Shown in pieces: positions 17,850 through 63,780 of a DNA stretch of 64,000 nucleotides; position 1 is the first letter of the stretch, and each line of letters begins with the position of its first letter. The notes beneath the pieces are model-generated. The model ran no database searches, was not told the origin of the DNA, and worked only from the letters and a program-made list of their open reading frames with translations. A program made the translations under genes and the position numbers. Source of the DNA: Planctomycetota bacterium (GTDB lineage: Bacteria > Planctomycetota > MHYJ01 > JACQXL01); contig JAZDMB010000030.1 in the NCBI GenBank assembly GCA_043801445.1, forward strand, positions 78,178 through 142,177, in the 5' to 3' direction.

Positions 17850-18750
17850 TGACTAAATTATTGTTGTTCTTGTTAAGCATTTTATTTTCTGATTAATATT
17901 TCATATCCCATATTTCTTAACTTTCTTGTTCATATTCCTGCTTGTTGGCATAGGTAGGGGTGTTAGTAAAATTTCTACGGGATACTCGTTAACGGCGAGG
18001 AATACCAAGCCATTCCGGATGGACATTTCATAAACCCTATATTACATCTGGGTTTTGGCGATGACTATCATCCGTCACCTTTAAGTAGGGCAGTTGTGCG
18101 ATAAACAGGCATACCTCTAACACCTTATTTCAGGCAGGTCACAGACTCATCTATCCTTGTAGTCAAATATCCCTAAGATATATAGGTTGGTCGCCTATAT
18201 GTGCTTATTTTATAGGATATACCGGTATAGGCTCTATTGGGTGGTAGGGGATACCCTACCCCCATACCACCAATACCATACCCCTTATAACTTATTCATA
18301 TACCTGATACTATCCTGTGATATATAGTATATACACCGGTAACCGAATATGTATTACCTTATATACTTACTGATACTACGATGTAGTCCATCTGATAGTA
18401 TATGTTATACTACAGGATAATATCAGATAATACAATGTTTAGTCAGGTATATTATATCGTATAGTATTGCATATGATAATTCATACTACCTTATAGTATA
18501 TAGTATAGTATGGGATAGATCAACTCATAGCATGGCATAGTCACACTATGTGGCATAGTTAGACACAGATACCGTATAGGTGAAATTCATTACAGAGAGT
18601 AATATACGGAAAATATATAATTATATTGACCCCATTAGAGATAATTGATATGGTTTACATATATGATAACCCCTCTGTCCCTGCGGGACTACGGGATAAC
18701 TGCCCGTAATTCTTCCCGACGGGACTCAAACAGGCAGTAAGGAGGTGTAA
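17850..18750. other. ~0.9 kb non-coding block of skewed, word-repetitive composition (tata/gtat/catag/ggtag words; near-palindrome GGTAGGGGATACCCTACCCCC)
   Basis: No ORF of 60 aa or more on either strand. Contains 'gggtggtaggggataccctacccccataccaccaataccatacccc' and long runs of 'tatagtata/catagcatggcatag'. Word content resembles the repeat arrays at 47.9-50.1 kb. Confidence 0.5.
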
Positions 18751-37505: not shown

Positions 37506-39155
37506 ATGAAAAAATTAAGTAAAGCATTAAAACTGTTGGTGGAAGAAGGCAAACGGAAGGGTAAGCTGACATATGATGAAATCAATAAAGTTCTGCCGTC
37601 AGAAACAACCTTTCCCGAAGAACTTGATAAGCTATTAGTTCTTCTGTCTGATTTAGGTATTGAATTGGTTGAGGAAGAAGCGACTGCCGAAACTCAAGAA
37701 ACCGAGAAAGAAGAACGAGAGGGACATGAGGAACAAGAAGAGCCGGAGTTGAAGCCGGAAGTAGAAAAGGAGAAATTAGACGACCCGGTCCGGATGTACC
37801 TCAAACAGATGGCGGAGATACCGTTACTTTCCCGCACCGATGAATTAATGCTGGCAAAAAAGATTGAACAAGCCCGTCATCGCTTCCGTGAGAAAGTGGA
37901 AGAATCACCCGTGGCGGTATTGGAATCCATTAATTTATTGGAAGATGTCCGTAATGGTAATATTGCTCTTGACCGTACTTTGCGAGGTGACAGTGAGATA
38001 GACTTAAGCAAACGCAAGATAATCCGTCATTTACCCCGTATCATCAGTCAGCTCAAACGATTATTAAATAACAATAAAGACGATTATATAAATCTTACGA
38101 CCAATAAGCTCACATCTAAAATTAGGGATAAAATTAAACGTAAAGTTGCATCCAGACAAAAGAAATGGATTGGTATTTTAGAATCTCTTAATATACAGGT
38201 GCGAAGAATCAAACCAATTGCCAACCGCTTGAAAGACATTTATAAACAATGGAACCTGGCTGACAAAGAAATGTTATCTCTGCGGAAGAAACCAGCAAAT
38301 CGTCTGAGACGAAAGGAATTAGAAAGTAAATTTTCAGATTTTAAATTACTTCTGATGGAAGAATTTTTGACTTTAAAGACCAGAGTAAAAGAACTTGAAC
38401 GAAGGTATAATGAATATGAAAAATATAAACGCAGACTTTCGGCGAGTAATTTGAGACTAGTAGTAAGTATTGCCAAGCAATATCGTAATCGTGGCATGGG
38501 CTTTTTGGATCTGGTCCAGGAAGGTAACACGGGTTTAATGCGGGCCGTTGAAAAATACGACTACACACGCGGATATCGGTTTTCGACTTATGCAACCTGC
38601 TGGATTCGACAGGCGATTACTAGGGCTATTGCAGACCAATCACGGACCATAAGAATACCGGTTCATATGGTCGAAACCATGAGAAGGCTTAAGTCAGCTG
38701 CCAAAGAAATCATGCAGGACAAAGGAAGGAAACCGGCAATTGAAGAAATTGCCATACTCTCTGATGTGCCACTTGATGAGGCAAAAAGAATTTATCGGAT
38801 AATCAGACAGCCGGTTTCTATCGACCGCCCCGTTAAAAGCGGAGAAGACGCAGAATTCAGCGATTTTATTGAGGATACCTCCGTTCAATCACCGGTTAAG
38901 CTTGCGACACATGAAATGCTCAGGGAAAAACTTAGAATAGTTCTTCATTCTTTACCTTTCCGCGAACGAGAAATTGTCAAGCTCAGATACGGCATCGGTG
39001 CCGGCTATTCATATACTCTGGAAGAAATCGGTAAAATATTTAAAATTACCAGGGAAAGAGTCAGACAGATTGAAGAAAAAGCTCTGAAAAAATTAAGACA
39101 TCCCACAAAAATCAGAAAACTAGAAAGTTTTATGGAAGGGGTTAAGAAAATTTAA
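37506..39155 (+). CDS. rpoD: RNA polymerase primary sigma factor (sigma-70)
   Basis: Region 1.1 acidic stretch; region 2 '[54 protein letters not shown]'; region 4 '[30 protein letters not shown]'. Follows dnaG. Confidence 0.9.
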
Positions 39156-39893
39156 ATGAACAATCAAATTATTGAAAGACTCAAGGAACTGCAGGAAATC
39201 GATCTGAAAATAAATCGGCTGAATAAAATATGCGTTGAAAAATCGGATTCGATTGATGGAAAGCGGGAAGACATCAGAACGTTACAGCAAATAATCAAAG
39301 AGAAAAAGGATAAGGCCAAACAATTAAAAATAGAAATAGACAAAAAGGATTTGGACCTGAAGTGCAATGAGGAAAAGGCTAATAAATTAACTATCCAGTT
39401 AAACACGGTTCGCACCAATAAAGAATACTCGATTATTACCAATGAAATCAAAGCAGTCAAGGCCGATAATGATGTGATAGAGGATGTCCTTTTGAATTTC
39501 TTCAACCAGAATGATATGATACAAAAAGACATTAAAGAATTGGAAACCAAAATAAAAGAAAAGAATGATGAGATAAATGCCTTGACGGCTGTGATTAATG
39601 ATGAAATCAGCCAGATTAAAAAGGAAATAGATAATAATTGCCAAATCCGCAACAAGAATTCGGAAGAAATAGACAGTGAAGCATTGAATAAATATGAAAA
39701 AATCATGAATAGCAAACCGGATTTAACTGCGTTAGCCAAAGTAGTTGATTTTACCTGCGGGAGTTGTTATATGGATGTACCCCGGCAGCAGGTTAATGAA
39801 ATCCTGCGTGGTAAACAACTGATTTGCTGTAAGTCATGCTCACGAATTCTTTACCTTGATATTACTAATGGACTGCAGGAAAATAATGATTGA
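39156..39893 (+). CDS. coiled-coil protein with C-terminal C4 zinc ribbon (COG1579-like)
   Basis: Long heptad-rich region, then 'CGSCYMDVPRQQVNEILRGKQLICCKSCSRILY'. 1-nt gap after the rpoD stop. Confidence 0.55.
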   Translation: MNNQIIERLKELQEIDLKINRLNKICVEKSDSIDGKREDIRTLQQIIKEKKDKAKQLKIEIDKKDLDLKCNEEKANKLTIQLNTVRTNKEYSIITNEIKAVKADNDVIEDVLLNFFNQNDMIQKDIKELETKIKEKNDEINALTAVINDEISQIKKEIDNNCQIRNKNSEEIDSEALNKYEKIMNSKPDLTALAKVVDFTCGSCYMDVPRQQVNEILRGKQLICCKSCSRILYLDITNGLQENND

Positions 39894-43636: not shown

Positions 43637-43798
43637 ATATGTTTTTCAACATTTTATACTAAAGATAAATTAACTTAGCAAGAAGAAAGAGAAAGATATG
43701 ACAATTAATCTGTGTAATCTGTGGCTCAAGTTTAGCTCCTAAAAAGCCGATAAATACTTAACATCACTAATATATAATTCTTCAACAAGGAGTATGTT

Positions 43799-44593
43799 AT
43801 GGCGAATATATTAATCGTTGACACACTGCAAGAAACCGGCTCATTGATGAAGAGCCTGCTCAGCAATTATTACGGCGTATCACTGTCAGAAAATACCTCT
43901 GACGCCATAAAGAAAATAGAAACGGCTTTATTTGATGTCGTTATAATGGAATTGGAAAAGCTTAATCCCGATGCCGAGAAGTTTATAAAGGAAACAAAAG
44001 AAATGCTGCCTCAGTTGCCGATTATCATTATGAGCGACCACGAAGTGACCGCGGTCAGGGATGCTTCTAAAGGGAAAGCCCTCAGCGAACATCAGGACAA
44101 CCTGCAATCTTTAGACTGTCTCAAAGTAATGAGACGGCCTTTCCGGTGCACTGCATTAATGGAATCTATCGCCGATGGTCTTCTCAAATACAATATCGGT
44201 TCTGAGGTAAACGCTCATCATCGTTCCATGGCATACAATGTAGAAATATCCCAGAATAATAATAAGACATTGATACCGTTAAAGTGTTCTATAATTGATT
44301 TAAGTTTAAAGGGAATGATGATAGAACCATTAACTGTTTTCGCAGGCCGTTCCCAGGAGACCGAAAAGAACCAGTTCCAGAGTTTCTTTAAGACCCTGTG
44401 CCCTGAAGGGCGTATTTATTCGAAGCCGCTACATACCAATATTCTTATAAAAGAACAAGAATCAATCGGTCTTGACGCAAGCATTGCCTTCGTGGAAAAC
44501 AGTCCCGGCGATATTTTTAATAGGGCAGGCTTGAGTTTTAACGATTCCAATCAGCAGAACAATCGCCTGATGGAATTATTGAAACAAGCATAA
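43799..44593 (+). CDS. receiver-like (atypical, Asp->Glu at phospho-acceptor position) plus PilZ-like domain protein
   Basis: N-terminal CheY-like fold 'ILIVDT...FDVVIMELEKLNPD' with Glu where the phospho-Asp is expected. C-terminal 'HHRSMAYN...IIDLSLKGMMIE' resembles the PilZ RxxxR/DxSxxG pattern. Confidence 0.4.
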   Translation: MANILIVDTLQETGSLMKSLLSNYYGVSLSENTSDAIKKIETALFDVVIMELEKLNPDAEKFIKETKEMLPQLPIIIMSDHEVTAVRDASKGKALSEHQDNLQSLDCLKVMRRPFRCTALMESIADGLLKYNIGSEVNAHHRSMAYNVEISQNNNKTLIPLKCSIIDLSLKGMMIEPLTVFAGRSQETEKNQFQSFFKTLCPEGRIYSKPLHTNILIKEQESIGLDASIAFVENSPGDIFNRAGLSFNDSNQQNNRLMELLKQA

Positions 44594-54055: not shown

Positions 54056-54772
54056 TTACTCTGCTGGCCCCCAGTTTCTGCCACCTGCGCCAGTTGACTG
54101 GGTGGGTGAACCACCAGCAGTTGTAGCAGGCCAAGTGAGAGGATTAGCCGCAGCCGGTCCACAATTCCAAGCGGCATTTGCGCCACCTTGGTCTGTTGAA
54201 TAGACTGTGCCACCTTCGTTTACAATAAACATATTGACACCGCTTGACCCATAAGCTTCAGGTGCAGCGGCAAAAGCAAAAAGACTATTATTACACGCGG
54301 CCACAGCTGCAACGCCAACCGTGTTTACTTTATAAAGAGCTCCTGAGGCGATATAAGTGGTTACTAATGCTCTGTATAAATAACCTGATTTTGCAGTCTT
54401 TACAAGTGCTGTTGCTCCTGCATCCCAATCTTCAAAGACTGGAGTTGCACCAAAAACATCATCAACCGCTCTGGAGTCATCAGCTCTGGCATAGGATATA
54501 TCAATGAAATTAACCTTTGTAGTGCCATCTGCCCGCGTCATACGGTTAAAACAAGAAAGATCATATGTCCAATAGTCTTTTGTTCCATTGCCATCACAAT
54601 CTTGCTGTTTCCAGATAGCTTCCTGTGAAGTGAGTGTTTTCAATCCTGCAATCGCGCTGGTCTCATTTGCAGACATACGGCCGGTTAACAGATTCGGGAT
54701 AGCAATAGCCGCGATAATCGCAATAATGGCGATTACTATCATCAGTTCAATCAGTGTAAAACCTTTACGCAT
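54056..54772 (-). CDS. prepilin-type N-terminal cleavage/methylation domain protein (type IV pilin / pseudopilin-like)
   Basis: 'MRKGFTLIELMIVIAIIAIIAAIAIPNLL' is the canonical class III signal peptide (G/FTLIE). Start taken at the internal Met preceding this motif. Confidence 0.7.
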   Translation of the reverse strand: MRKGFTLIELMIVIAIIAIIAAIAIPNLLTGRMSANETSAIAGLKTLTSQEAIWKQQDCDGNGTKDYWTYDLSCFNRMTRADGTTKVNFIDISYARADDSRAVDDVFGATPVFEDWDAGATALVKTAKSGYLYRALVTTYIASGALYKVNTVGVAAVAACNNSLFAFAAAPEAYGSSGVNMFIVNEGGTVYSTDQGGANAAWNCGPAAANPLTWPATTAGGSPTQSTGAGGRNWGPAE

Positions 54773-55424
54773 ATAGCTCCTTTCAGTTATAGTTATATTT
54801 TCGTTCTCTGATGGAGTATAAGAGAACGATTTCAACAATTTGTATCGCTTAGTTTTATGTGTTCTATATATTCTTATCACCTCCTTTATCTTTTATAGAA
54901 CCCATAAATCAAGAATACTCTATTGTTTGATTTAATTATATAGCAATTCTTATACCTGATTCTTGTAAATATGTCAATAAAATAATAAAATATAAGTAAT
55001 ATCCTTAACTTATTTATTAGTATGCAGATAAGAAAATAATTAAATTCAGTTAATAATAAAGCTATTAATAATCAACAATAACCTTACATAAAATACACTA
55101 TTAATTGTCATAATATACCATTTTTTGTAGCTGTTGTAGCAATTTTTTGTGTATATCTCTTATACTGCAGACAAAAGCGAGTAAAGTGCTTTTTGTTTCG
55201 CATGTATTTATCAGCAATAGAGCGATTGCTATAATCATGATTAAATAAATTGATGAAGCGATGCCATTCGGTGAATTTAGACGGCCATGTTCCTTTTCAT
55301 GCTTACCTTCTCAAATCAAGTAAAGAGACAATTCAACTCCACATCCTTGACCTAAAACACACAGCATAATGTTTACCTTGAATTTTTATTGACTATTTCG
55401 AGAATAATTATTTTAGTGTTTATA

Positions 55425-58833: not shown

Positions 58834-59037
58834 ATGCGGAAAAAAGAACTATTTGGAGAAATAGCTGTTAGATTAAGACTTGCAACACCACAACAGGTAA
58901 AATTAGCTCTAAAAAAACAACAGCAACTGAAAGAAAATAATAGGCACCGTTTAATTGGGTTAATCATGCTTGAGATGAATATTCTTGATACTACAGGTTT
59001 TATTAGTATTCTGAAGGAAATTGACAAGTCTATTTAA
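58834..59037 (+). CDS. small T2SSE_N/MshEN-like domain protein (possible c-di-GMP-binding module)
   Basis: Two tandem ~24-aa motifs 'LFGEIAVRLRLATPQQVKLALKKQ' and 'HRLIGLIMLEMNILDTTGFISILKEI' resemble the RLGxxLVxxGLITxEQLxxALxxQ repeats of GspE/MshE N-terminal domains. Confidence 0.4.
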   Translation: MRKKELFGEIAVRLRLATPQQVKLALKKQQQLKENNRHRLIGLIMLEMNILDTTGFISILKEIDKSI

Positions 59038-59554
59038 AACTCATACAAAAATAAAACAGCAAAAGAAAGGTTACATGAAAAAAAATAAGCCCTCTAAGAA
59101 AAAGATTCCTAATCAACAATCTTTAACATTTCCTTGCCACCCTAAATATTTAGTGACCGTACGAAAAGTAGTGTCTAGAATGTGGCGTCTAAATAAATTG
59201 CCGTTAAAAGATATGAGATTAGTAACGTTAGCAATTGATGAAGCAGCCAGTGTTATTGTTCAACATGCATTAGCGATAAAACAAAGCGGGAATATCAATA
59301 TTCATTTGGATATAAACGATGTAAGGTTTAAAGCTGTTATACAAGATAATATTCATTATTTTGATATAGATAATCTTTCCGAAACAGAACGTCGTTCTTT
59401 ATTACTAAAAGAAAGACGTCACCAAATATCCCTTTATTTAATAACTACAGTGATGGATGAAGTTACTTATGTTTATAAAAAGGGATTCGAGAATGAATTG
59501 CATCTCATTAAATTTATAAAACCATCCTCAATTCAAAGAAACAACTTGAAATAA
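59021..59554 (+). CDS. hypothetical protein, possible HATPase-like anti-sigma regulatory factor
   Basis: 'VTLAIDEAASVIVQHA' resembles the N-box (ExxxNAxxHA) of RsbW/SpoIIAB-type kinases. G-boxes not evident. Overlaps the upstream small ORF by 17 nt. Confidence 0.3.
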   Translation: MTSLFKTHTKIKQQKKGYMKKNKPSKKKIPNQQSLTFPCHPKYLVTVRKVVSRMWRLNKLPLKDMRLVTLAIDEAASVIVQHALAIKQSGNINIHLDINDVRFKAVIQDNIHYFDIDNLSETERRSLLLKERRHQISLYLITTVMDEVTYVYKKGFENELHLIKFIKPSSIQRNNLK

Positions 59555-59567
59555 TACGATTTTATTT

Positions 59568-60485
59568 ATGCTTAATAACAATGAAGTTGCTACAGAGTTA
59601 CTGCCAAATAATAATTATAAAGCCACAAAAGTCTCGGAAAGATTACGATATTTAGAAAATGTCTTGAATTTTTCTCCTGACATTATTATTTGTGGTGATA
59701 GCAATGGTAAAATCGTGGAATTTAATAGGGGAGCTGAAAAATTATTGGGTTACTCGCGAGGAGAAGTATTAGGCAAGCCGATTACCGACCTTTATTTTAA
59801 TCCTCGCGACAGATATAAAATGATTAATCTTTTACAACGAAAAGGTCAAGTTGTCGATTATGAAACCAGGCTTAAAAATAAAGCGGGACGAATGATTTAT
59901 ATATCAACCAGTGTAGCTTATCTTTATAACGAATTCGGGAAACTTATTGGTACAATTGGTATTGCTAAAGACATTAGACGCAGAAAGGAATTAGATAAAA
60001 AATTAGAGCGTTTAGCAATTACAGATGGATTAACCAACTTATATGATAGAGGCCATTTTAATATTTCCTTAGTTAAAATTATTGAAAAAGCTCGAAAAAC
60101 ACGACAATTGCTGAGTTGTATAATGATTGATTTAGACGGATTTAAAGAATATAATGATAAAGAAGGACATCTTGGAGGCGATGAAGTTCTGCGGAAAGTA
60201 GGTTCAATCATCCTAAAAGTTATACCTTATAACACAGGCTCAGCTTATCGTTATGGGGGAGATGAGTTTATCATGTTGATTACTGGGAAGAAACAAATGG
60301 TGGTAACATCTTTAGCTGAAAGAATCAGGAAAGAAATAGAAAATAATTTTAATAAACGAATTACGGCAAGTATTGGTGTTACTTATTGGCAATTATTTCA
60401 GACACCGCACCAACTGGTCAAAAATGCTGATGATGCGATGTATCGGGCAAAATCGTATGGCGGTAATAGAGTCTGTTTATCATGA
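59568..60485 (+). CDS. PAS-GGDEF diguanylate cyclase
   Basis: N-terminal PAS-like region, then 'RYGGDEF' active site with preceding 'IMIDLDGFKEYND'. 4-nt overlap with ruvA. Confidence 0.8.
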   Translation: MLNNNEVATELLPNNNYKATKVSERLRYLENVLNFSPDIIICGDSNGKIVEFNRGAEKLLGYSRGEVLGKPITDLYFNPRDRYKMINLLQRKGQVVDYETRLKNKAGRMIYISTSVAYLYNEFGKLIGTIGIAKDIRRRKELDKKLERLAITDGLTNLYDRGHFNISLVKIIEKARKTRQLLSCIMIDLDGFKEYNDKEGHLGGDEVLRKVGSIILKVIPYNTGSAYRYGGDEFIMLITGKKQMVVTSLAERIRKEIENNFNKRITASIGVTYWQLFQTPHQLVKNADDAMYRAKSYGGNRVCLS

Positions 60486-61096
60486 TAGAATATATTTGCG
60501 GACAACTAAAAGAAAAGAACCCAGCTACAGCAATAATAGATATTAATGGCATTGCCTTTAAGTTGTTTATTCCATTATCTACCTATGAAAAACTGCCAGA
60601 AAAAGGTCCCGTTTCACTTTTTACAACTCTTGTTATTCATGGTGGAATGTCATCTTCCGGTGAATTAAAAATATATGGTTTTGGCTCTAAAGAAGAACGC
60701 CAGTTTTTTCAGCTTCTCTGTTCGGTTACTCGAATCGGTCCATTAGTAGCATTACGAATACTTTCTGGTTCTTCAATTTATAATATCAAACAAGCCATTA
60801 TTTCTGAGGACGTTAAATTTCTATCTAAGGTAAAAGGTGTAGGCCTTAAAACTGCTCAAAGGATTATTATGGAACTTAAAGATTCTCTCAAGGATTTTGA
60901 AATAATGACGACTGCAACAACCCCCATAAAAAATATAGCGGTTACTGAAGCAATATTAGTTTTAAATGCTTTAGGATATCCTCTAAATATTGCCGAGAAA
61001 ACTGTGAGACAAGTATTACAAAAACCATTATCAGAAATATCTACTGAAATTTTAGTTAAACAAGCATTAAAAGAATCTCAATATGAACCATTATAG
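60482..61096 (+). CDS. ruvA: Holliday junction DNA helicase RuvA
   Basis: 'MIEYICGQLKEKNPATAIIDINGIAFKLFIPLSTYEKL' OB-fold N-terminus, HhH 'VKGVGLKTAQRIIMELKD'. ~200 aa. Confidence 0.85.
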   Translation: MIEYICGQLKEKNPATAIIDINGIAFKLFIPLSTYEKLPEKGPVSLFTTLVIHGGMSSSGELKIYGFGSKEERQFFQLLCSVTRIGPLVALRILSGSSIYNIKQAIISEDVKFLSKVKGVGLKTAQRIIMELKDSLKDFEIMTTATTPIKNIAVTEAILVLNALGYPLNIAEKTVRQVLQKPLSEISTEILVKQALKESQYEPL

Positions 61097-61715
61097 ATTA
61101 TACCACGTATTATTTGTTGTAATAAGTTTATTTGTCAGTTGTAGTTCACCGCAATTAGACAGAACTGGATTCTCACCACAAGATCATTATAAATTCGGGT
61201 TAAATTGGATAGGAGCTCATGACTTTCAGAGGGCGGAATTTTCCTTTAAGAAGGCAGTTGAATTAGATAGTAATTTTGGAGATGCCTACATCCAATTAGG
61301 ATTAGTGTATTATATTCTTTATGAAAAAGAAGTATCTTCTACTAAGAATCCAGATACTATAATGCAATATTATAACTCCGCATATAATTGTTTTACTAAA
61401 GGGTTAAAATGTGGCTCTAAAAATCCGCAGGCATATACAGGAATCGCAAGATTACAAAAAGTAGCTAATAGATTTGATAAAGCTATTGAAAGCTTGCTAA
61501 AAGCGCATGAACTTACTGAACCGGATGATATCACTACTGAAATTATCATTCATTATGAGTTAGGAGATTGTTATTTGGCACAAGGAAAATATAAGGAAGC
61601 TCTAGCGGAATACAAGGAATATCTGGAATTAGTTCCAACCAGTCAAGAACACGAAAATATTGAGAATGTCATTAAGGAAATCGAAAAACAGTTAGGCATC
61701 AGCTCGCCCCGATAA
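61083..61715 (+). CDS. TPR-repeat lipoprotein
   Basis: Signal/lipobox 'LFVSCSS'. TPR-like repeats (AEFSFKKAVELDSNFGDAYIQLGLVYY; YELGDCYLAQGKYKEALAEYKEYLEL). Confidence 0.55.
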   Translation: MNHYRLYHVLFVVISLFVSCSSPQLDRTGFSPQDHYKFGLNWIGAHDFQRAEFSFKKAVELDSNFGDAYIQLGLVYYILYEKEVSSTKNPDTIMQYYNSAYNCFTKGLKCGSKNPQAYTGIARLQKVANRFDKAIESLLKAHELTEPDDITTEIIIHYELGDCYLAQGKYKEALAEYKEYLELVPTSQEHENIENVIKEIEKQLGISSPR

Positions 61716-61759
61716 ATTTTCAGACCTTTCTCGTACTCATTTATTATTAATTTTTATAA

Positions 61760-61897
61760 AGATTTTTTATGTTTTTTCTTGACAAGTTTATTTACATACT
61801 GTAAATTACATCATGTAAAAAATATTTTAATAATATTTTTTATTTTTCTTGACATTTTTACACATTGTAATTTATACTATGTAAAGAATAAATAATA
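61760..61897 (+). promoter_or_regulatory. tandemly duplicated promoter/operator unit (2 x ~60 bp: TTCTTGACA-N17-TAAATT/TATACT with paired TTACA-N3-TGTAA palindromes)
   Basis: 'ttttttcttgacaagtttatttacatactgtaaattacatcatgtaaa' and 'tttttcttgacatttttacacattgtaatttatactatgtaaag' both visible. Each has a consensus -35 TTGACA and two TTACA..TGTAA inverted repeats. Confidence 0.55.
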
Positions 61898-62161
61898 ATG
61901 ATTATGAAAAATAAAAGGGCATTTGAATACCAGCCTAGAAAATTATATAGGATATCTGAAATCCTTTATTTTTTACAGCAGGGCGGCACAAGAATTTCAA
62001 GACAGACTCTTCATAATTATACTTTAATGGGATTAATTTCTGAAGATTGCCGTACACAAGCCGGTCATCGCTTATATGATGCAAACGTTTTTAAACGTCT
62101 AAGAAAAATAGAACTTTTAAAAAGACACAGAACATTATCAGAAATAAAAAAAATAATATAG
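61898..62161 (+). CDS. small HTH DNA-binding protein (MerR/excisionase-like)
   Basis: 'YRISEILYFLQQGGTRISRQTLHNYTLMGLI' is an HTH-like pattern; 87 aa. Directly downstream of the duplicated operator-like promoter. Confidence 0.4.
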   Translation: MIMKNKRAFEYQPRKLYRISEILYFLQQGGTRISRQTLHNYTLMGLISEDCRTQAGHRLYDANVFKRLRKIELLKRHRTLSEIKKII

Positions 62162-62198
62162 GTATTGATAACGAGAGGATAAATGTGAAAGGAGATTT

Positions 62199-62972
62199 AT
62201 GAAAATAAACACAGAAAATTTAGAACTAATGTCTCTTTGGGGGAAATACAAGAAAACTTATCGTAAAGATTTTCGCAATCAACTAATAGAACATTATTTG
62301 CCTATAGTTAAGAATATTGCCGAGAGATTATCATTACATCTACCTAATTTTATTAATGTCGAAGATTTGATTAGTATGGGGGTACTTGGGTTATTTACTT
62401 CTATTAGGTCATTTAATTTGAAACGGGGTGTACGCTTTGAAACTTATTGTGCCAATAGAGTTCGTGGAGCTATGATAGATGGATTAAGAGAATCAGATTG
62501 GGTTCCTCGTCTGGTAAGAACGAAATCTCATCGATTAGAAAAAACATCCCGCTATTTAGAAAATGTCCTCTGTAGAAAACCGAATGATGTTGAAATTGCT
62601 AAAAAACTTAGAATTTCGTTGAATGAATATAACCGATTACGTCATGAATCAGTTGCAACTTCTATATTGCCTTTTGCTTATAAGGATGATGAGGACGAAA
62701 CCAATATGTTAACGTCTAATATTCTTGAAGACAATAAAAGTCCTGATAATTTGAAAAGGTTTTTAAATCGTCAAATAGTAGAAAATATTAAAAATAATCT
62801 TTCTAAAAAGGAACGGCTTGTTTTAGAAATGTATTATTATGAGGAAATGACAATGGATGAAATCGGTTACGTATTAGATATTACCGAATCACGTGTAAGT
62901 CAGATACTGGCAAATTTGATTAAACGATTGAAAACTTTGTTACAAAAGCATAAATATGAGTGGCTATCCTAA
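62199..62972 (+). CDS. fliA: FliA/WhiG-family (sigma-28-like) RNA polymerase sigma factor
   Basis: Region 2 'LIEHYLPIVKNIAERL...LISMGVLGLFTSIRSFNLKRGVRFETYCANRVRGAMIDGLRE'; region 4 'MTMDEIGYVLDITESRVSQILANLIKRL'. No flagellar genes in the window. Confidence 0.7.
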   Translation: MKINTENLELMSLWGKYKKTYRKDFRNQLIEHYLPIVKNIAERLSLHLPNFINVEDLISMGVLGLFTSIRSFNLKRGVRFETYCANRVRGAMIDGLRESDWVPRLVRTKSHRLEKTSRYLENVLCRKPNDVEIAKKLRISLNEYNRLRHESVATSILPFAYKDDEDETNMLTSNILEDNKSPDNLKRFLNRQIVENIKNNLSKKERLVLEMYYYEEMTMDEIGYVLDITESRVSQILANLIKRLKTLLQKHKYEWLS

Positions 62973-63780
62973 TAAACCGCATATATTATTAACTAATGAT
63001 GATGGATTAGGAAAATCTGAAGGATTGAAAAGTTTGTATTTATCGTTAAGTAAACGGTTCACAGTGACAGTGGTAGCACCATTCTATGAACAAAGTGGCA
63101 AAAGCCAATCTATAACCATTTTGTCTCCTATCTTTATAGATAAAATTAATAATGATAAAAAAGGAGTTGATTATATATATGCTGTAAAAGGCACTCCAAC
63201 TGATTGTGTCAAGATTGCTTTCAGTTATATACTAAAAAGACTACCAGATTTTGTTGTTTCAGGTATTAATTTAGGTGCTAATGTCGGATTAGATGTTTTT
63301 TATTCCGGCACTGTTGCAGCAGCAATTGAATCCTCCTTTTGGGGTGTTACTTCATTTGCGGTATCAGTAGAAAAACATACTCATCAGAAAAAAAAGCTAG
63401 ATTTAAGAAAAATATCTCAAATCGCCGGAAAGGTTATCAGATCACTTATTAAAACTAATCCACCCAGAGGAAGCATTTTTAATATTAATATCCCCTCAAA
63501 TACATCCTCTATCAAAGGTATTAAATATACTCGACAAGATTTACGATTAATCAAAGATAATTTTATCAAAGGCATAGACCCGAGAGGCAGACATTATTAT
63601 TGGATGACATCAGGTCATAGAACCATTTCTCCAACTGATTCGCCTGATGATAAATTTTTATCAGATATAATGACTCTAAAATCCGGCTATATTTCAATCA
63701 CGCCCCTTAAAGCAAATTTTACAAACGATACATTCCTTACTAACCATCCTCAAATTAACCCCGGATTATTCATACGTTAA
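62956..63780 (+). CDS. surE: 5'/3'-nucleotidase SurE
   Basis: 'ILLTNDDGLGKSEGLKSLYLSL...VVAPFYEQSGKSQSIT' SurE N-terminal signature (DDG motif). Confidence 0.85.
   Translation: MSGYPNKPHILLTNDDGLGKSEGLKSLYLSLSKRFTVTVVAPFYEQSGKSQSITILSPIFIDKINNDKKGVDYIYAVKGTPTDCVKIAFSYILKRLPDFVVSGINLGANVGLDVFYSGTVAAAIESSFWGVTSFAVSVEKHTHQKKKLDLRKISQIAGKVIRSLIKTNPPRGSIFNINIPSNTSSIKGIKYTRQDLRLIKDNFIKGIDPRGRHYYWMTSGHRTISPTDSPDDKFLSDIMTLKSGYISITPLKANFTNDTFLTNHPQINPGLFIR

What the first reader, a model, noticed from the sequence alone, without database searches (positions are those of the whole stretch)
61740..62972. Tandemly duplicated sigma-70-type promoter with TTACA-N3-TGTAA operators upstream of an HTH gene and a fliA-like sigma factor
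Two ~60-bp direct repeats each contain a consensus TTGACA, a 17-bp spacer, an A/T-rich -10, and two TTACA..TGTAA palindromes overlapping the -10 region. Downstream are a small MerR/Xis-like HTH protein and a FliA/WhiG-family sigma factor, but no flagellar or chemotaxis genes are visible in 64 kb. This suggests an autoregulated alternative-sigma module with non-flagellar targets.
Basis: partly seen in the sequence, partly recalled or inferred. Interest (0 to 1): 0.5.

Follow-up and report, generated by a model that had tools for sequence, protein, structure and literature searches.

The report
Self-repressed promoter of a sigma-28 operon
A duplicated promoter carries binding sites that most likely let a tiny MerR-type protein shut off its own operon, which also encodes the flagellar-type sigma factor FliA; the same protein-plus-site pair recurs across Planctomycetota and Omnitrophota, usually beside flagellar regulator genes.

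Summary
Window 61779-61890 holds two tandem sigma-70-type promoters. Each is followed by two abutting 13-bp palindromes TTACA-N3-TGTAA: three exact copies against 0.08 expected, plus one copy with a single mismatch. Downstream lie an 87-aa MerR-type HTH gene, a FliA/WhiG sigma-28 gene and surE, with no terminator between them.

The half-site array travels with the HTH gene. TTACR-N3-YGTAA is about 126-fold enriched in the 350 nt upstream of 85 homologous loci. Omnitrophota carry it at the operon promoter. The half-sites keep a 7-bp register. The recognition helix (SRQTLHNYT) is nearly invariant. The operator centre coincides with the -10 element, so negative autoregulation is the best reading.

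The "non-flagellar" idea is not supported. Relatives place this HTH next to fliA, an FlhG-like ATPase, an FlgM-like protein, FlgN and sigma-54 activators. The window itself has no flagellar genes, and the rest of the genome could not be checked.

Two further findings. The window has lost a sigma-54 activator gene that sits between HTH and sigma in its closest relatives; a 12-codon remnant remains. A conserved canonical sigma-28 promoter lies at 43726-43753.

Verdict: an uncharacterised regulator family of ordinary logic, moderately interesting.

The parts
61759..61828 (+). Promoter unit 1, the upstream copy of the tandem duplication. It has a T-rich tract, the -35 TTGACA at 61779-61784, a 17-nt spacer and the -10 TAAATT at 61802-61807.
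   Evidence: The same unit is present in L081 and L082. Its -35-to-operator spacing of 7 nt is that of the single-promoter relative L093; the other single-promoter relatives have 6 nt.
61792..61818 (.). Operator pair O1: TTACAtacTGTAA (61792-61804), one base, then TTACAtcaTGTAA (61806-61818). That gives four half-sites in a 7-bp register. The centre of the pair coincides with the P1 -10 hexamer.
   Evidence: exact matches, 0.08 expected; half-sites conserved while the N3 spacers vary; spacing rule.
61829..61897 (+). Promoter unit 2, the copy next to the gene. It has the -35 TTGACA at 61849-61854, an 18-nt spacer and the -10 TATACT at 61873-61878. The gap between the -35 and the operator is 4 bp shorter than in unit 1.
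   Evidence: L081 shares the 4-bp deletion. L082 does not.
61858..61884 (.). Operator pair O2: TTACAcatTGTAA (61858-61870) and the degenerate TTATActaTGTAA (61872-61884). The mutated third half-site provides the TATACT -10 hexamer.
61898..62161 (+). Gene for an 87-aa MerR-type winged-HTH protein that consists of the DNA-binding domain only. It is the proposed autorepressor.
   Evidence: Pfam and NCBIfam; PDB profile hits MtaN, MerR and TipAN over residues 14-82; AlphaFold2 model with pLDDT 89.8 showing four helices and a wing and no alpha-5 helix; Foldseek; the recognition helix S34-T42 is invariant apart from L38, which is conserved in at least 90% of the 36 homologues.
62164..62202 (+). Remnant of a deleted sigma-54 activator (EBP) gene: its last 12 codons plus stop (IDNERINVKGDL*), overlapping the sigma start codon.
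   Evidence: L081, at 90% DNA identity, has 964 more bp here that encode a 331-aa AAA+/HTH_8 protein.
62199..62972 (+). FliA/WhiG-family sigma-28 gene. It follows the HTH gene after 37 nt with no terminator between them. A Shine-Dalgarno sequence AAAGGAG precedes it.
62956..63780 (+). surE, which overlaps the end of the sigma gene by 17 nt. It is probably the last gene of the operon.
   Evidence: The sigma-SurE adjacency is also seen in L081 and in the distant L095.
61687..61715 (+). Candidate weak sigma-28-type promoter upstream of P1: AACAGTTA, 13 nt, CCCGATAA. It overlaps the TPR gene's stop codon. This would be possible positive feedback by the sigma factor.
   Evidence: The -10-like element is conserved in L081, L083 and L001, where it is intergenic in the latter two. 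It is lost in L093, L085, L091 and L095.
61083..61715 (+). Gene for a 210-aa TPR protein immediately upstream. A TPR gene also neighbours the HTH gene in Omnitrophota, where it is the first gene of the operon, and in many Planctomycetia.
43726..43753 (+). Canonical sigma-28 promoter TCAAGTTT-N12-GCCGATAA, 45 nt upstream of a gene for a receiver-like, PilZ-like protein (43799-44593). This is a candidate target of the sigma factor.
   Evidence: Both promoter elements (TCAAGTTT and GCCGATAA) are identical in the orthologous locus L097, while the 12-nt spacer and the upstream flank differ.

Best explanation
Window 61759-61897 is the sigma-70-type promoter-operator region of an operon that encodes three proteins. 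These are a MerR-type protein reduced to its DNA-binding domain (87 aa), the sigma-28 factor FliA/WhiG, and SurE.

The 87-aa protein binds an array of four TTAC(A/G) / (C/T)GTAA half-sites set 7 bp apart, which read as two abutting TTACA-N3-TGTAA palindromes. The array lies across the spacer and the -10 hexamer. Binding would therefore block RNA polymerase, so the protein represses its own synthesis and, with it, that of the co-transcribed sigma factor (inferred).

In this lineage the whole promoter-operator unit has been duplicated in tandem. The gene-proximal copy has lost 4 bp, and one of its half-sites has changed into a better -10 hexamer (TATACT). The two copies therefore probably differ in strength and in how tightly they are repressed (inferred).

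A weak sigma-28-type promoter further upstream may add positive feedback (weakly supported).

The ancestral operon also carried a sigma-54 activator between the HTH and sigma genes. This genome has deleted it.

By its genomic company in other lineages, the module most likely gates a flagellar or motility-type sigma-28 regulon.
For: Shown directly:
- The promoters and palindromes are present and non-random.
- HTH, sigma and surE are contiguous or overlapping, with no terminator between them.
- The protein is a MerR N-terminal winged HTH that ends after helix 4.

Comparative evidence:
- In 11 promoter copies from 9 relatives plus the 2 window copies, TTGACA, TTTAC, GTAAaTTA and GTAAA are conserved. 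The N3 spacers and the flanks vary.
- TTACR-N3-YGTAA occurs 25 times in 29.75 kb of upstream regions from 85 dereplicated HTH loci, against 4 times in the remaining 599 kb.
- Most of the remaining half-site pairs at these spacings are the same array at the promoter of the TPR-HTH-FliA operon in Omnitrophota.
- Half-site spacing follows a strict rule: 8 or 15 for convergent pairs, 6 for divergent pairs, 7 or 14 for direct pairs.
- The recognition helix SRQTLHNYT and the wing motif GHRLY are invariant or nearly so across the family, which matches the conserved half-site.
- No second double site exists in the 64-kb window.

Linkage to sigma-28: 43 of 72 species-level loci with at least 3 kb of downstream sequence carry fliA within 2.7 kb on the same strand.

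Flagellar company: FlgN, PF05130, 35.7 bits against a 30.5 cut-off; an FlgM-like protein in 10 of 12 members; a MinD/FlhG-like ATPase.
Against: No binding, transcription-start or expression data exist; every functional step is inferred from sequence.

The protein lacks the MerR dimerisation helix, so how it assembles on four half-sites is unknown.

The -10 hexamers are weak (TAAATT) or lineage-specific (TATACT), and the promoter scan is not enriched above shuffles in this A+T-rich region.

About 40% of family members (29 of 72 loci) have no sigma gene within 4 kb, so the HTH is not exclusively a fliA regulator.

The upstream sigma-28-like -10 element is lost in four of the eight distinct clade relatives examined.

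The window contains no flagellar gene. The one clear sigma-28 target found is a protein of unknown function.
Confidence: 0.65

Rival explanations
1. The HTH protein is a classical MerR-type activator. It would bind between the -35 and -10 elements and twist a badly spaced promoter into an active form.
For: The protein belongs to the MerR family by sequence and fold. Part of the operator lies in the spacer.
Against: The spacers are 16-18 nt, already near optimal, rather than the 19-20 nt typical of MerR targets. The operator centre lies on the -10 hexamer, not in mid-spacer. The protein lacks the alpha-5 coiled coil and any effector domain, both of which the MerR mechanism needs.
Confidence: 0.1
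2. The half-site array is bound by some other regulator or nucleoid protein. The HTH protein would act elsewhere, for example on sigma-28 or sigma-54 target promoters, or as a partner of the sigma-54 activator.
For: No direct evidence links the protein to the site. The family often neighbours c-di-GMP cyclases and other regulators that could supply another binder.
Against: The array follows the HTH gene through four different operon layouts and two phyla. It moves to the TPR gene's promoter where TPR is the first gene. It is absent from the rest of about 600 kb of flanking sequence. The invariant recognition helix parallels the conserved half-site.
Confidence: 0.12
3. This is a stand-alone, non-flagellar sigma-28 module, as in Chlamydia or Streptomyces. 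It would control development, c-di-GMP signalling or the cell surface rather than motility.
For: The 64 kb contains no flagellar or chemotaxis genes. The one clear sigma-28 promoter precedes a receiver-like, PilZ-like gene of unknown function. The operon ends in surE. An RsbW-like kinase and a PAS-GGDEF gene lie just upstream, and this is conserved in the clade.
Against: The family's neighbours elsewhere are FlgN, an FlgM-like protein, an FlhG-like ATPase and sigma-54 activators. PilZ proteins are ordinary members of sigma-28 regulons in flagellated bacteria (established knowledge for E. coli YcgR). 64 kb is too small a sample of the genome.
Confidence: 0.3
4. The tandem duplication is a neutral, recent slippage or recombination product with no regulatory consequence.
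For: It is restricted to the closest relatives (window, L081, L082). L093, whose sigma is 91% identical, has only one full promoter.
Against: Both copies keep intact -35 elements and half-sites in three assemblies. The proximal copy has acquired a compensating -10 hexamer after its 4-bp deletion. This suggests that both copies are kept in use.
Confidence: 0.3

Closest known systems
BldC of Streptomyces, a 68-aa MerR-like protein (PMC5859096)
   Same: Both are MerR DNA-binding domains without the coiled coil or an effector domain. BldC binds arrays of short repeats as a multimer. It is a developmental regulator in an organism that also uses a WhiG-type sigma factor and c-di-GMP.
   Different: There is no detectable sequence relationship: BldC is absent from the PDB profile hits and ranks only 37th by fold, with TM 0.5. 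By its authors' account, BldC binds direct repeats head to tail. Here the half-sites have mixed orientation at a 7-bp register.
Canonical MerR-family activators (MerR, MtaN, TipAN, BmrR, CueR)
   Same: These are the best sequence and structure matches over the winged HTH (residues 14-82): E 4e-10 and TM 0.65-0.68.
   Different: This protein has no alpha-5 dimerisation helix and no sensor domain. The promoter spacer is 16-18 nt rather than 19-20 nt. The operator is centred on the -10 hexamer. The likely action is repression.
GlnR/TnrA of Bacillus
   Same: They are small MerR-type proteins without the coiled coil. Their half-site TGTNA resembles TGTAA. They act as repressors and are weakly hit by the profile and by fold.
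   Different: Their operator is TGTNA-N7-TNACA (established knowledge). Here the half-sites are arranged as N3 and N1. This protein has no C-terminal tail for binding glutamine synthetase.
FliA (sigma-28) of flagellar hierarchies and its FlgM/FlhG/sigma-54 context
   Same: The sigma factor passes the FliA_WhiG subfamily model. A conserved TCAAGTTT-N12-GCCGATAA promoter is present. Relatives carry FlhG-like, FlgM-like, FlgN and sigma-54 activator genes beside it.
   Different: fliA is placed behind a dedicated autoregulated MerR-type gene. No flagellar genes are in view. The operon continues into surE.
Chlamydial sigma-28 and Streptomyces WhiG (non-flagellar sigma-28 factors)
   Same: They belong to the same sigma subfamily. 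Chlamydiae belong to the same superphylum as Planctomycetota. WhiG activity is tied to c-di-GMP (established knowledge), and GGDEF genes neighbour this module.
   Different: No RsiG-like partner was seen. Non-flagellar use is not shown here.

Membership tests
MerR family transcription regulators | N-terminal winged helix-turn-helix domain of the MerR type | tested here: met
   PF13411 scores 22.3 bits against a 21.6 cut-off. PF00376 scores 25.1 bits, below its 28.2 cut-off. The profile against PDB hits MtaN at 3.7e-10 and MerR at 4.5e-10. Foldseek gives TM 0.65-0.68.
MerR family transcription regulators | Long alpha-5 coiled-coil dimerisation helix and a C-terminal effector-binding region | tested here: not met
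   The protein ends at residue 87, after helix 4. The model shows helices at 19-28, 35-43, 63-74 and 80-86 only. PDB alignments stop at target residues 70-76.
MerR family transcription regulators | Operator centred in an over-long (19-20 bp) -35/-10 spacer | tested here: not met
   Spacers are 17 and 18 nt in the window and 16-17 nt in relatives. The operator centre lies on the -10 hexamer.
BldC-like MerR proteins that are DNA-binding domain only | Consists of the MerR DNA-binding domain alone | tested here: met
BldC-like MerR proteins that are DNA-binding domain only | Homology to BldC | tested here: not met
   BldC chains are not among the 32 profile hits. Foldseek places them at ranks 37-50 with 18-19% identity and TMq 0.45-0.50.
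BldC-like MerR proteins that are DNA-binding domain only | Cooperative multimer binding to tandem repeat arrays | not testable with these tools
   The sites form arrays of 3-5 half-sites at a 7-bp register, which is compatible with this feature. Stoichiometry needs experiment.
GlnR/TnrA | 17-bp operator TGTNA-N7-TNACA | tested here: not met
   The arrangements seen are TTACR-N3-YGTAA and YGTAA-N1-TTACR.
HspR heat-shock repressor | Passes the HspR equivalog model | tested here: not met
   NF047375 scores 24 bits against a cut-off of 105. No CTTGAGT-N7-ACTCAAG element is present in the region read.
FliA/WhiG sigma-28 factors | Passes the subfamily model and has sigma regions 2, 3 and 4 | tested here: met
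   TIGR02479 scores 227.6 bits against 189.6. NF005413 scores 211.8 against 201. Pfam regions r2, r3 and r4 are all above their cut-offs.
FliA/WhiG sigma-28 factors | Cognate promoters of the TAAAGTTT-N11-GCCGATAA type in the genome | tested here: met
   TCAAGTTT-N12-GCCGATAA lies at 43726-43753. Both elements are identical in orthologous locus L097 while the spacer and the flanks differ. Only one clear site was found in the 64 kb.
FliA/WhiG sigma-28 factors | Controls late flagellar genes and is paired with the anti-sigma factor FlgM | not testable with these tools
   The window has no flagellar or FlgM gene. Relatives have FlgM-like, FlgN and FlhG-like neighbours. The rest of this genome is not available.

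The most novel reading that the evidence does not exclude
A previously undescribed family of MerR proteins, reduced to the DNA-binding domain, acts as a conserved gatekeeper of fliA. In some lineages it would also gate a sigma-54 activator, FlgN or FlgM. The family spans Planctomycetota and Omnitrophota. The protein would assemble as a multimer on heptad-phased half-sites of variable orientation, a DNA-recognition geometry not described for MerR proteins. It may couple motility or life-cycle switching to the adjacent c-di-GMP cyclases. In the window's clade the module is being remodelled, with two independent losses of the sigma-54 activator and a promoter duplication.
Probability: 0.25. Interest if true: 0.65.

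Novelty: new variant of a known kind. Interest (0 to 1): 0.45.

Why it matters
Nothing turned up in the two literature searches run here about how Planctomycetota or Omnitrophota control sigma-28 or their motile stage. This analysis gives a concrete, testable regulator-operator pair. It names the protein, the half-site, the spacing rule and the promoters, and the pair is conserved across two phyla and linked to fliA.

It also adds a second, unrelated example of a MerR domain working without its dimerisation helix on arrays of short sites.

The logic itself, a repressor co-transcribed with the factor it limits, is ordinary. The value therefore lies in annotation and as an entry point for experiments, not in a new principle.

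Tried and rejected
- HspR/HAIR reading: rejected, 24 bits against a cut-off of 105.
- Known RNA element in the leader or elsewhere: no Rfam hit in the whole window.
- Further operators in the window: the one-mismatch hits at 18590 and 20336 are single sites at chance frequency and lack the double arrangement.
- Sigma-54 promoters in the window: 4 one-mismatch hits against 1.4 expected, none exact; their positions relative to genes were not examined.
- Exact look-up of the window's sigma protein: not on record. A 100%-identical protein surfaced later through the homology search.
- Literature on a MerR-fliA module in Planctomycetes: nothing relevant.
- Sigma-28 autoregulation: CCGATAA is 4.4-fold enriched on the coding strand upstream of the family's genes (16 found against 3.7 expected). 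However, the -35 part is not conserved, and the element is lost in half of the window's clade. It is kept only as a weak add-on.
- The JGI contig carrying P0002 gave gene calls but no DNA.
Full report
**What is in the sequence**

The intergenic region 61716-61897 lies between a TPR gene (61083-61715) and an 87-aa ORF (61898-62161). The promoter scan ranks two sites here as the best in the 3.6 kb examined. P1 is TTGACA-17-TAAATT at 61779-61807. P2 is TTGACA-18-TATACT at 61849-61878. The total number of promoter-like hits is no higher than in shuffled sequence, so the scan alone proves nothing.

The two sites belong to a tandem duplication with a unit of 66-70 bp. Ungapped blocks are 75-79% identical. 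With the 4-bp indel between the -35 element and the operator, identity is 65% over the aligned unit.

Each copy carries two abutting 13-bp palindromes. Exact TTACANNNTGTAA occurs only at 61792, 61806 and 61858 in the 64 kb, against 0.08 expected. The fourth site, at 61872, has one mismatch.

**The genes**

The 87-aa protein is a MerR-type winged HTH. A profile of 36 homologues aligns to MtaN, MerR and TipAN over residues 14-82 only. The AlphaFold2 model (pLDDT 89.8) has four helices and a wing and ends where the MerR coiled coil would begin. Foldseek agrees. The protein is therefore a MerR DNA-binding domain with no dimerisation helix and no sensor.

Thirty-seven bases downstream, behind a Shine-Dalgarno sequence and with no terminator, starts a 257-aa FliA/WhiG sigma factor (TIGR02479, 227.6 bits against a 189.6 cut-off). 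surE overlaps the end of the sigma gene.

**The organism**

Homologues come from uncultured Planctomycetota. The more distant members of the window's clade are labelled Candidatus Brocadiia. The window has about 34-42% G+C.

**Comparative test of the operator**

Nine distinct relatives of the window's clade were read: L081, L082, L093, L091, L083, L085, L089, L001 and L095. Sigma identity to the window ranges from 94% down to 48%.

All of them have TTGACA followed, 6-7 nt later, by TTACA-N3-NGTAA-N-TTACR-N3-YGTAA or a close variant. In the most distant relative, L095, the two palindromes are separated by a longer gap. The pentamers are conserved while the N3 spacers and the flanks drift. The hexamer TAAATT, formed by the junction of the two palindromes, lies 16-17 nt after TTGACA. 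The operator centre is therefore the -10 element.

The pattern holds across 85 dereplicated loci that encode family members. TTACR-N3-YGTAA occurs 25 times in the 29.75 kb of 350-nt upstream regions and 4 times in the other 599 kb, an enrichment of about 126-fold.

Spacings between neighbouring half-sites in those upstream regions are almost entirely of a few values:
- 8 or 15 for convergent pairs;
- 6 for divergent pairs;
- 7 or 14 for direct pairs.

This amounts to a constant 7-bp register once a half-base offset is allowed.

Most of the half-site pairs at these spacings found outside the upstream regions turned out to be the same array in Omnitrophota. There it lies immediately upstream of the TPR gene that precedes the HTH gene (TGTAAAG TATAAAG TGTAATT TACATTT TATAAAC). 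The array thus follows the operon promoter, wherever that promoter is.

The recognition helix SRQTLHNYT is invariant apart from one position conserved in at least 90% of the 36 aligned homologues, and the wing motif GHRLY is invariant. This fits a conserved half-site. Together these results make the HTH protein the most likely binder and negative autoregulation the most likely function.

A MerR-style activation mechanism is unlikely. The spacers are already 16-18 nt, the site is centred on the -10 element, and the protein lacks the parts that the mechanism needs.

**The duplication**

The duplication is present in the window, L081 and L082. L093, L083, L085, L089, L091, L001 and L095 each have one promoter. 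In L082 both copies keep the ancestral spacing. In the window and L081 the gene-proximal copy has lost 4 bp, and its third half-site reads TTATA. That change creates TATACT or TATATT at an 18-nt spacing. The duplication is therefore recent and lineage-specific. Its two copies probably differ in strength and in repressibility; this is inference.

**A deleted sigma-54 activator**

A 315-333-aa sigma-54 activator lies between the HTH and sigma genes in L081, L082, L083, L085, L090, L093 and the distant L095. It has an AAA+ domain and HTH_8 but no receiver domain (family scan). A homologous stretch follows the HTH gene in L001, whose contig ends soon after.

The window is 90% identical in DNA to L081 on both sides of this gene but lacks 964 bp. 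It retains the last 12 codons of the activator gene (IDNERINVKGDL*, 62164-62202), which overlap the sigma start codon.

An independent assembly, L092, has a 100%-identical sigma and begins with the window-type junction. L091 lacks the gene too. It has different breakpoints and retains short stretches that match the activator's 3' end. That points to a second, independent loss.

**Flagellar or not**

About 55 window ORFs were scanned against Pfam. They are housekeeping genes (rho, pyrB/C, cysS, ispH, dnaG, rpoD, an RND efflux system and others), with no flagellar or chemotaxis family among them.

The family's company elsewhere is telling, however. Among 72 species-level loci with at least 3 kb of downstream sequence:
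- 23 have fliA directly after the HTH gene. Most are Omnitrophota, where fliA is followed by a small protein that weakly matches FlgM in 10 of 12 cases (best E 2.7e-4).
- 20 have the order HTH, unknown 134-aa protein, MinD/FlhG-like ATPase, fliA. A GAF-GGDEF gene often lies divergently upstream.
- 29 have no sigma gene within 4 kb. In at least a dozen of these the HTH gene is followed by a large TPR protein and then a small protein that passes the FlgN model in L008, or a homologue of it.

These are the standard regulators and chaperones of flagellar systems. The "non-flagellar" reading is therefore not supported. It is also not refuted for this genome, which I could not inspect.

**Sigma-28 promoters**

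CCGATAA is over-represented in the window: 27 found against 12 expected.

One site is a textbook promoter: TCAAGTTT-N12-GCCGATAA at 43726-43753, 45 nt before a gene for a receiver-like protein with a sub-threshold PilZ match. In the orthologous locus L097 (77% protein identity) both promoter elements are identical, while the 12-nt spacer and the upstream flank differ.

A weaker candidate, AACAGTTA-N13-CCCGATAA (61687-61715), lies upstream of P1. Its -10-like part is also present in L081, L083 and L001, where it is intergenic in the last two. It is lost in L093, L085, L091 and L095. Across the family, CCGATAA is 4.4-fold enriched on the coding strand upstream of the HTH gene, but without a conserved -35 element. 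Positive feedback by sigma-28 is therefore possible but only weakly supported.

**Comparison with what is known**

By sequence and fold the protein is a MerR family member in its DNA-binding domain only. It fails the family's other defining features: the coiled coil, the effector domain and the long-spacer operator.

It works most like BldC, which is also a bare MerR DNA-binding domain that binds arrays of short repeats (PMC5859096). It is not homologous to BldC beyond the shared fold.

It also recalls GlnR/TnrA, but the spacing of the operator half-sites differs.

The sigma factor is a regular FliA/WhiG member. I found no paper describing this module.

**Verdict**

The autoregulation reading is supported by strong comparative evidence. 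The non-flagellar reading is unsupported.

The feature is a new variant of a known kind: a self-repressed operon for an alternative sigma factor, run by an uncharacterised family of truncated MerR proteins with an unusual heptad-phased operator. Interest is moderate.

Noticed in passing
window 62162-62202: A sigma-54 activator gene (331 aa in L081) has been deleted between the HTH and sigma genes. 964 bp are missing relative to L081, and a 12-codon 3' remnant (IDNERINVKGDL*) overlaps the sigma start codon. The breakpoints lie in an imperfect repeat of about 35 bp. L091 shows a second deletion with other breakpoints.
   Followed up: yes
window 43726-43753 and 43799-44593: A canonical sigma-28 promoter, TCAAGTTT-N12-GCCGATAA, has both elements identical in orthologous locus L097 although the spacer and the flanks diverge. 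The downstream gene encodes a receiver-like domain in which Glu replaces the phospho-acceptor Asp (by eye). It also has a sub-threshold PilZ match (E 0.0035, DxSxxG present). A 487-aa secreted-looking protein of unknown function follows.
   Followed up: partly
window 58834-60485: Three genes lie upstream of ruvA, the TPR gene and the HTH gene, in order: a 67-aa protein with a faint match to an MshE-type c-di-GMP-binding motif, an RsbW-like anti-sigma kinase (HATPase_c_2), and a PAS-GGDEF cyclase. The order is kept in L081, L083, L087 and, except for the first gene, L001. In Phycisphaerae and Pirellulales a GAF-GGDEF gene lies divergently next to the HTH gene and shares the operator-bearing intergenic region. 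This hints at a c-di-GMP link.
   Followed up: partly
L048-L080 (Omnitrophota), for example L062:3273-3300: The same heptad-phased array (TGTAAAG TATAAAG TGTAATT TACATTT TATAAAC) lies just upstream of the TPR gene. The operon there reads TPR, HTH, FliA, FlgM-like. The operator is thus conserved across two phyla.
   Followed up: yes
L004, L005, L007, L008, L013, L018 and others: A sister branch of the HTH family is not followed by a sigma gene. Instead it is followed by a 770-1045-aa TPR protein and then FlgN (PF05130 above its cut-off in L008). Their promoters carry TATAAA-type heptad repeats, for example GTATAAA GTATAAA ATATAAA in L007.
   Followed up: partly
L001:3740-3990: About 250 bp of G+C-rich palindromic repeats (for example cccgtacgggtgctggg and ccccccgtacgggggg) are inserted between the operator-bearing promoter and the HTH start codon. 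They look like a small repeat element.
   Followed up: no
window 39156-39893: Directly after rpoD (37506-39155) lies a gene for a CT398/HP0958-type protein with a coiled-coil hairpin and a zinc ribbon. That family is reported to interact with sigma-54 and with flagellar or type III secretion components in Chlamydia and Helicobacter (from memory).
   Followed up: no
L093:4555-4746: In this close relative (91% sigma identity) the surE gene after the sigma gene is reduced to a 63-codon fragment. This is either a pseudogene or an assembly break.
   Followed up: no
L016, L020, L037, L042 upstream regions: A recurrent motif, A-rich tract then GTTGACATCCGATAAAAT, lies ahead of the operator in Phycisphaerae-type and Pirellulales-type loci. 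A sigma-28-like -10 element abuts a sigma-70-like -35 element. Its meaning is unclear.
   Followed up: no
window 54056-54880 (-): A gene for a prepilin-type protein with an N-terminal methylation motif (type IV pilin or pseudopilin-like). It is the only surface-appendage gene seen in the window.
   Followed up: no
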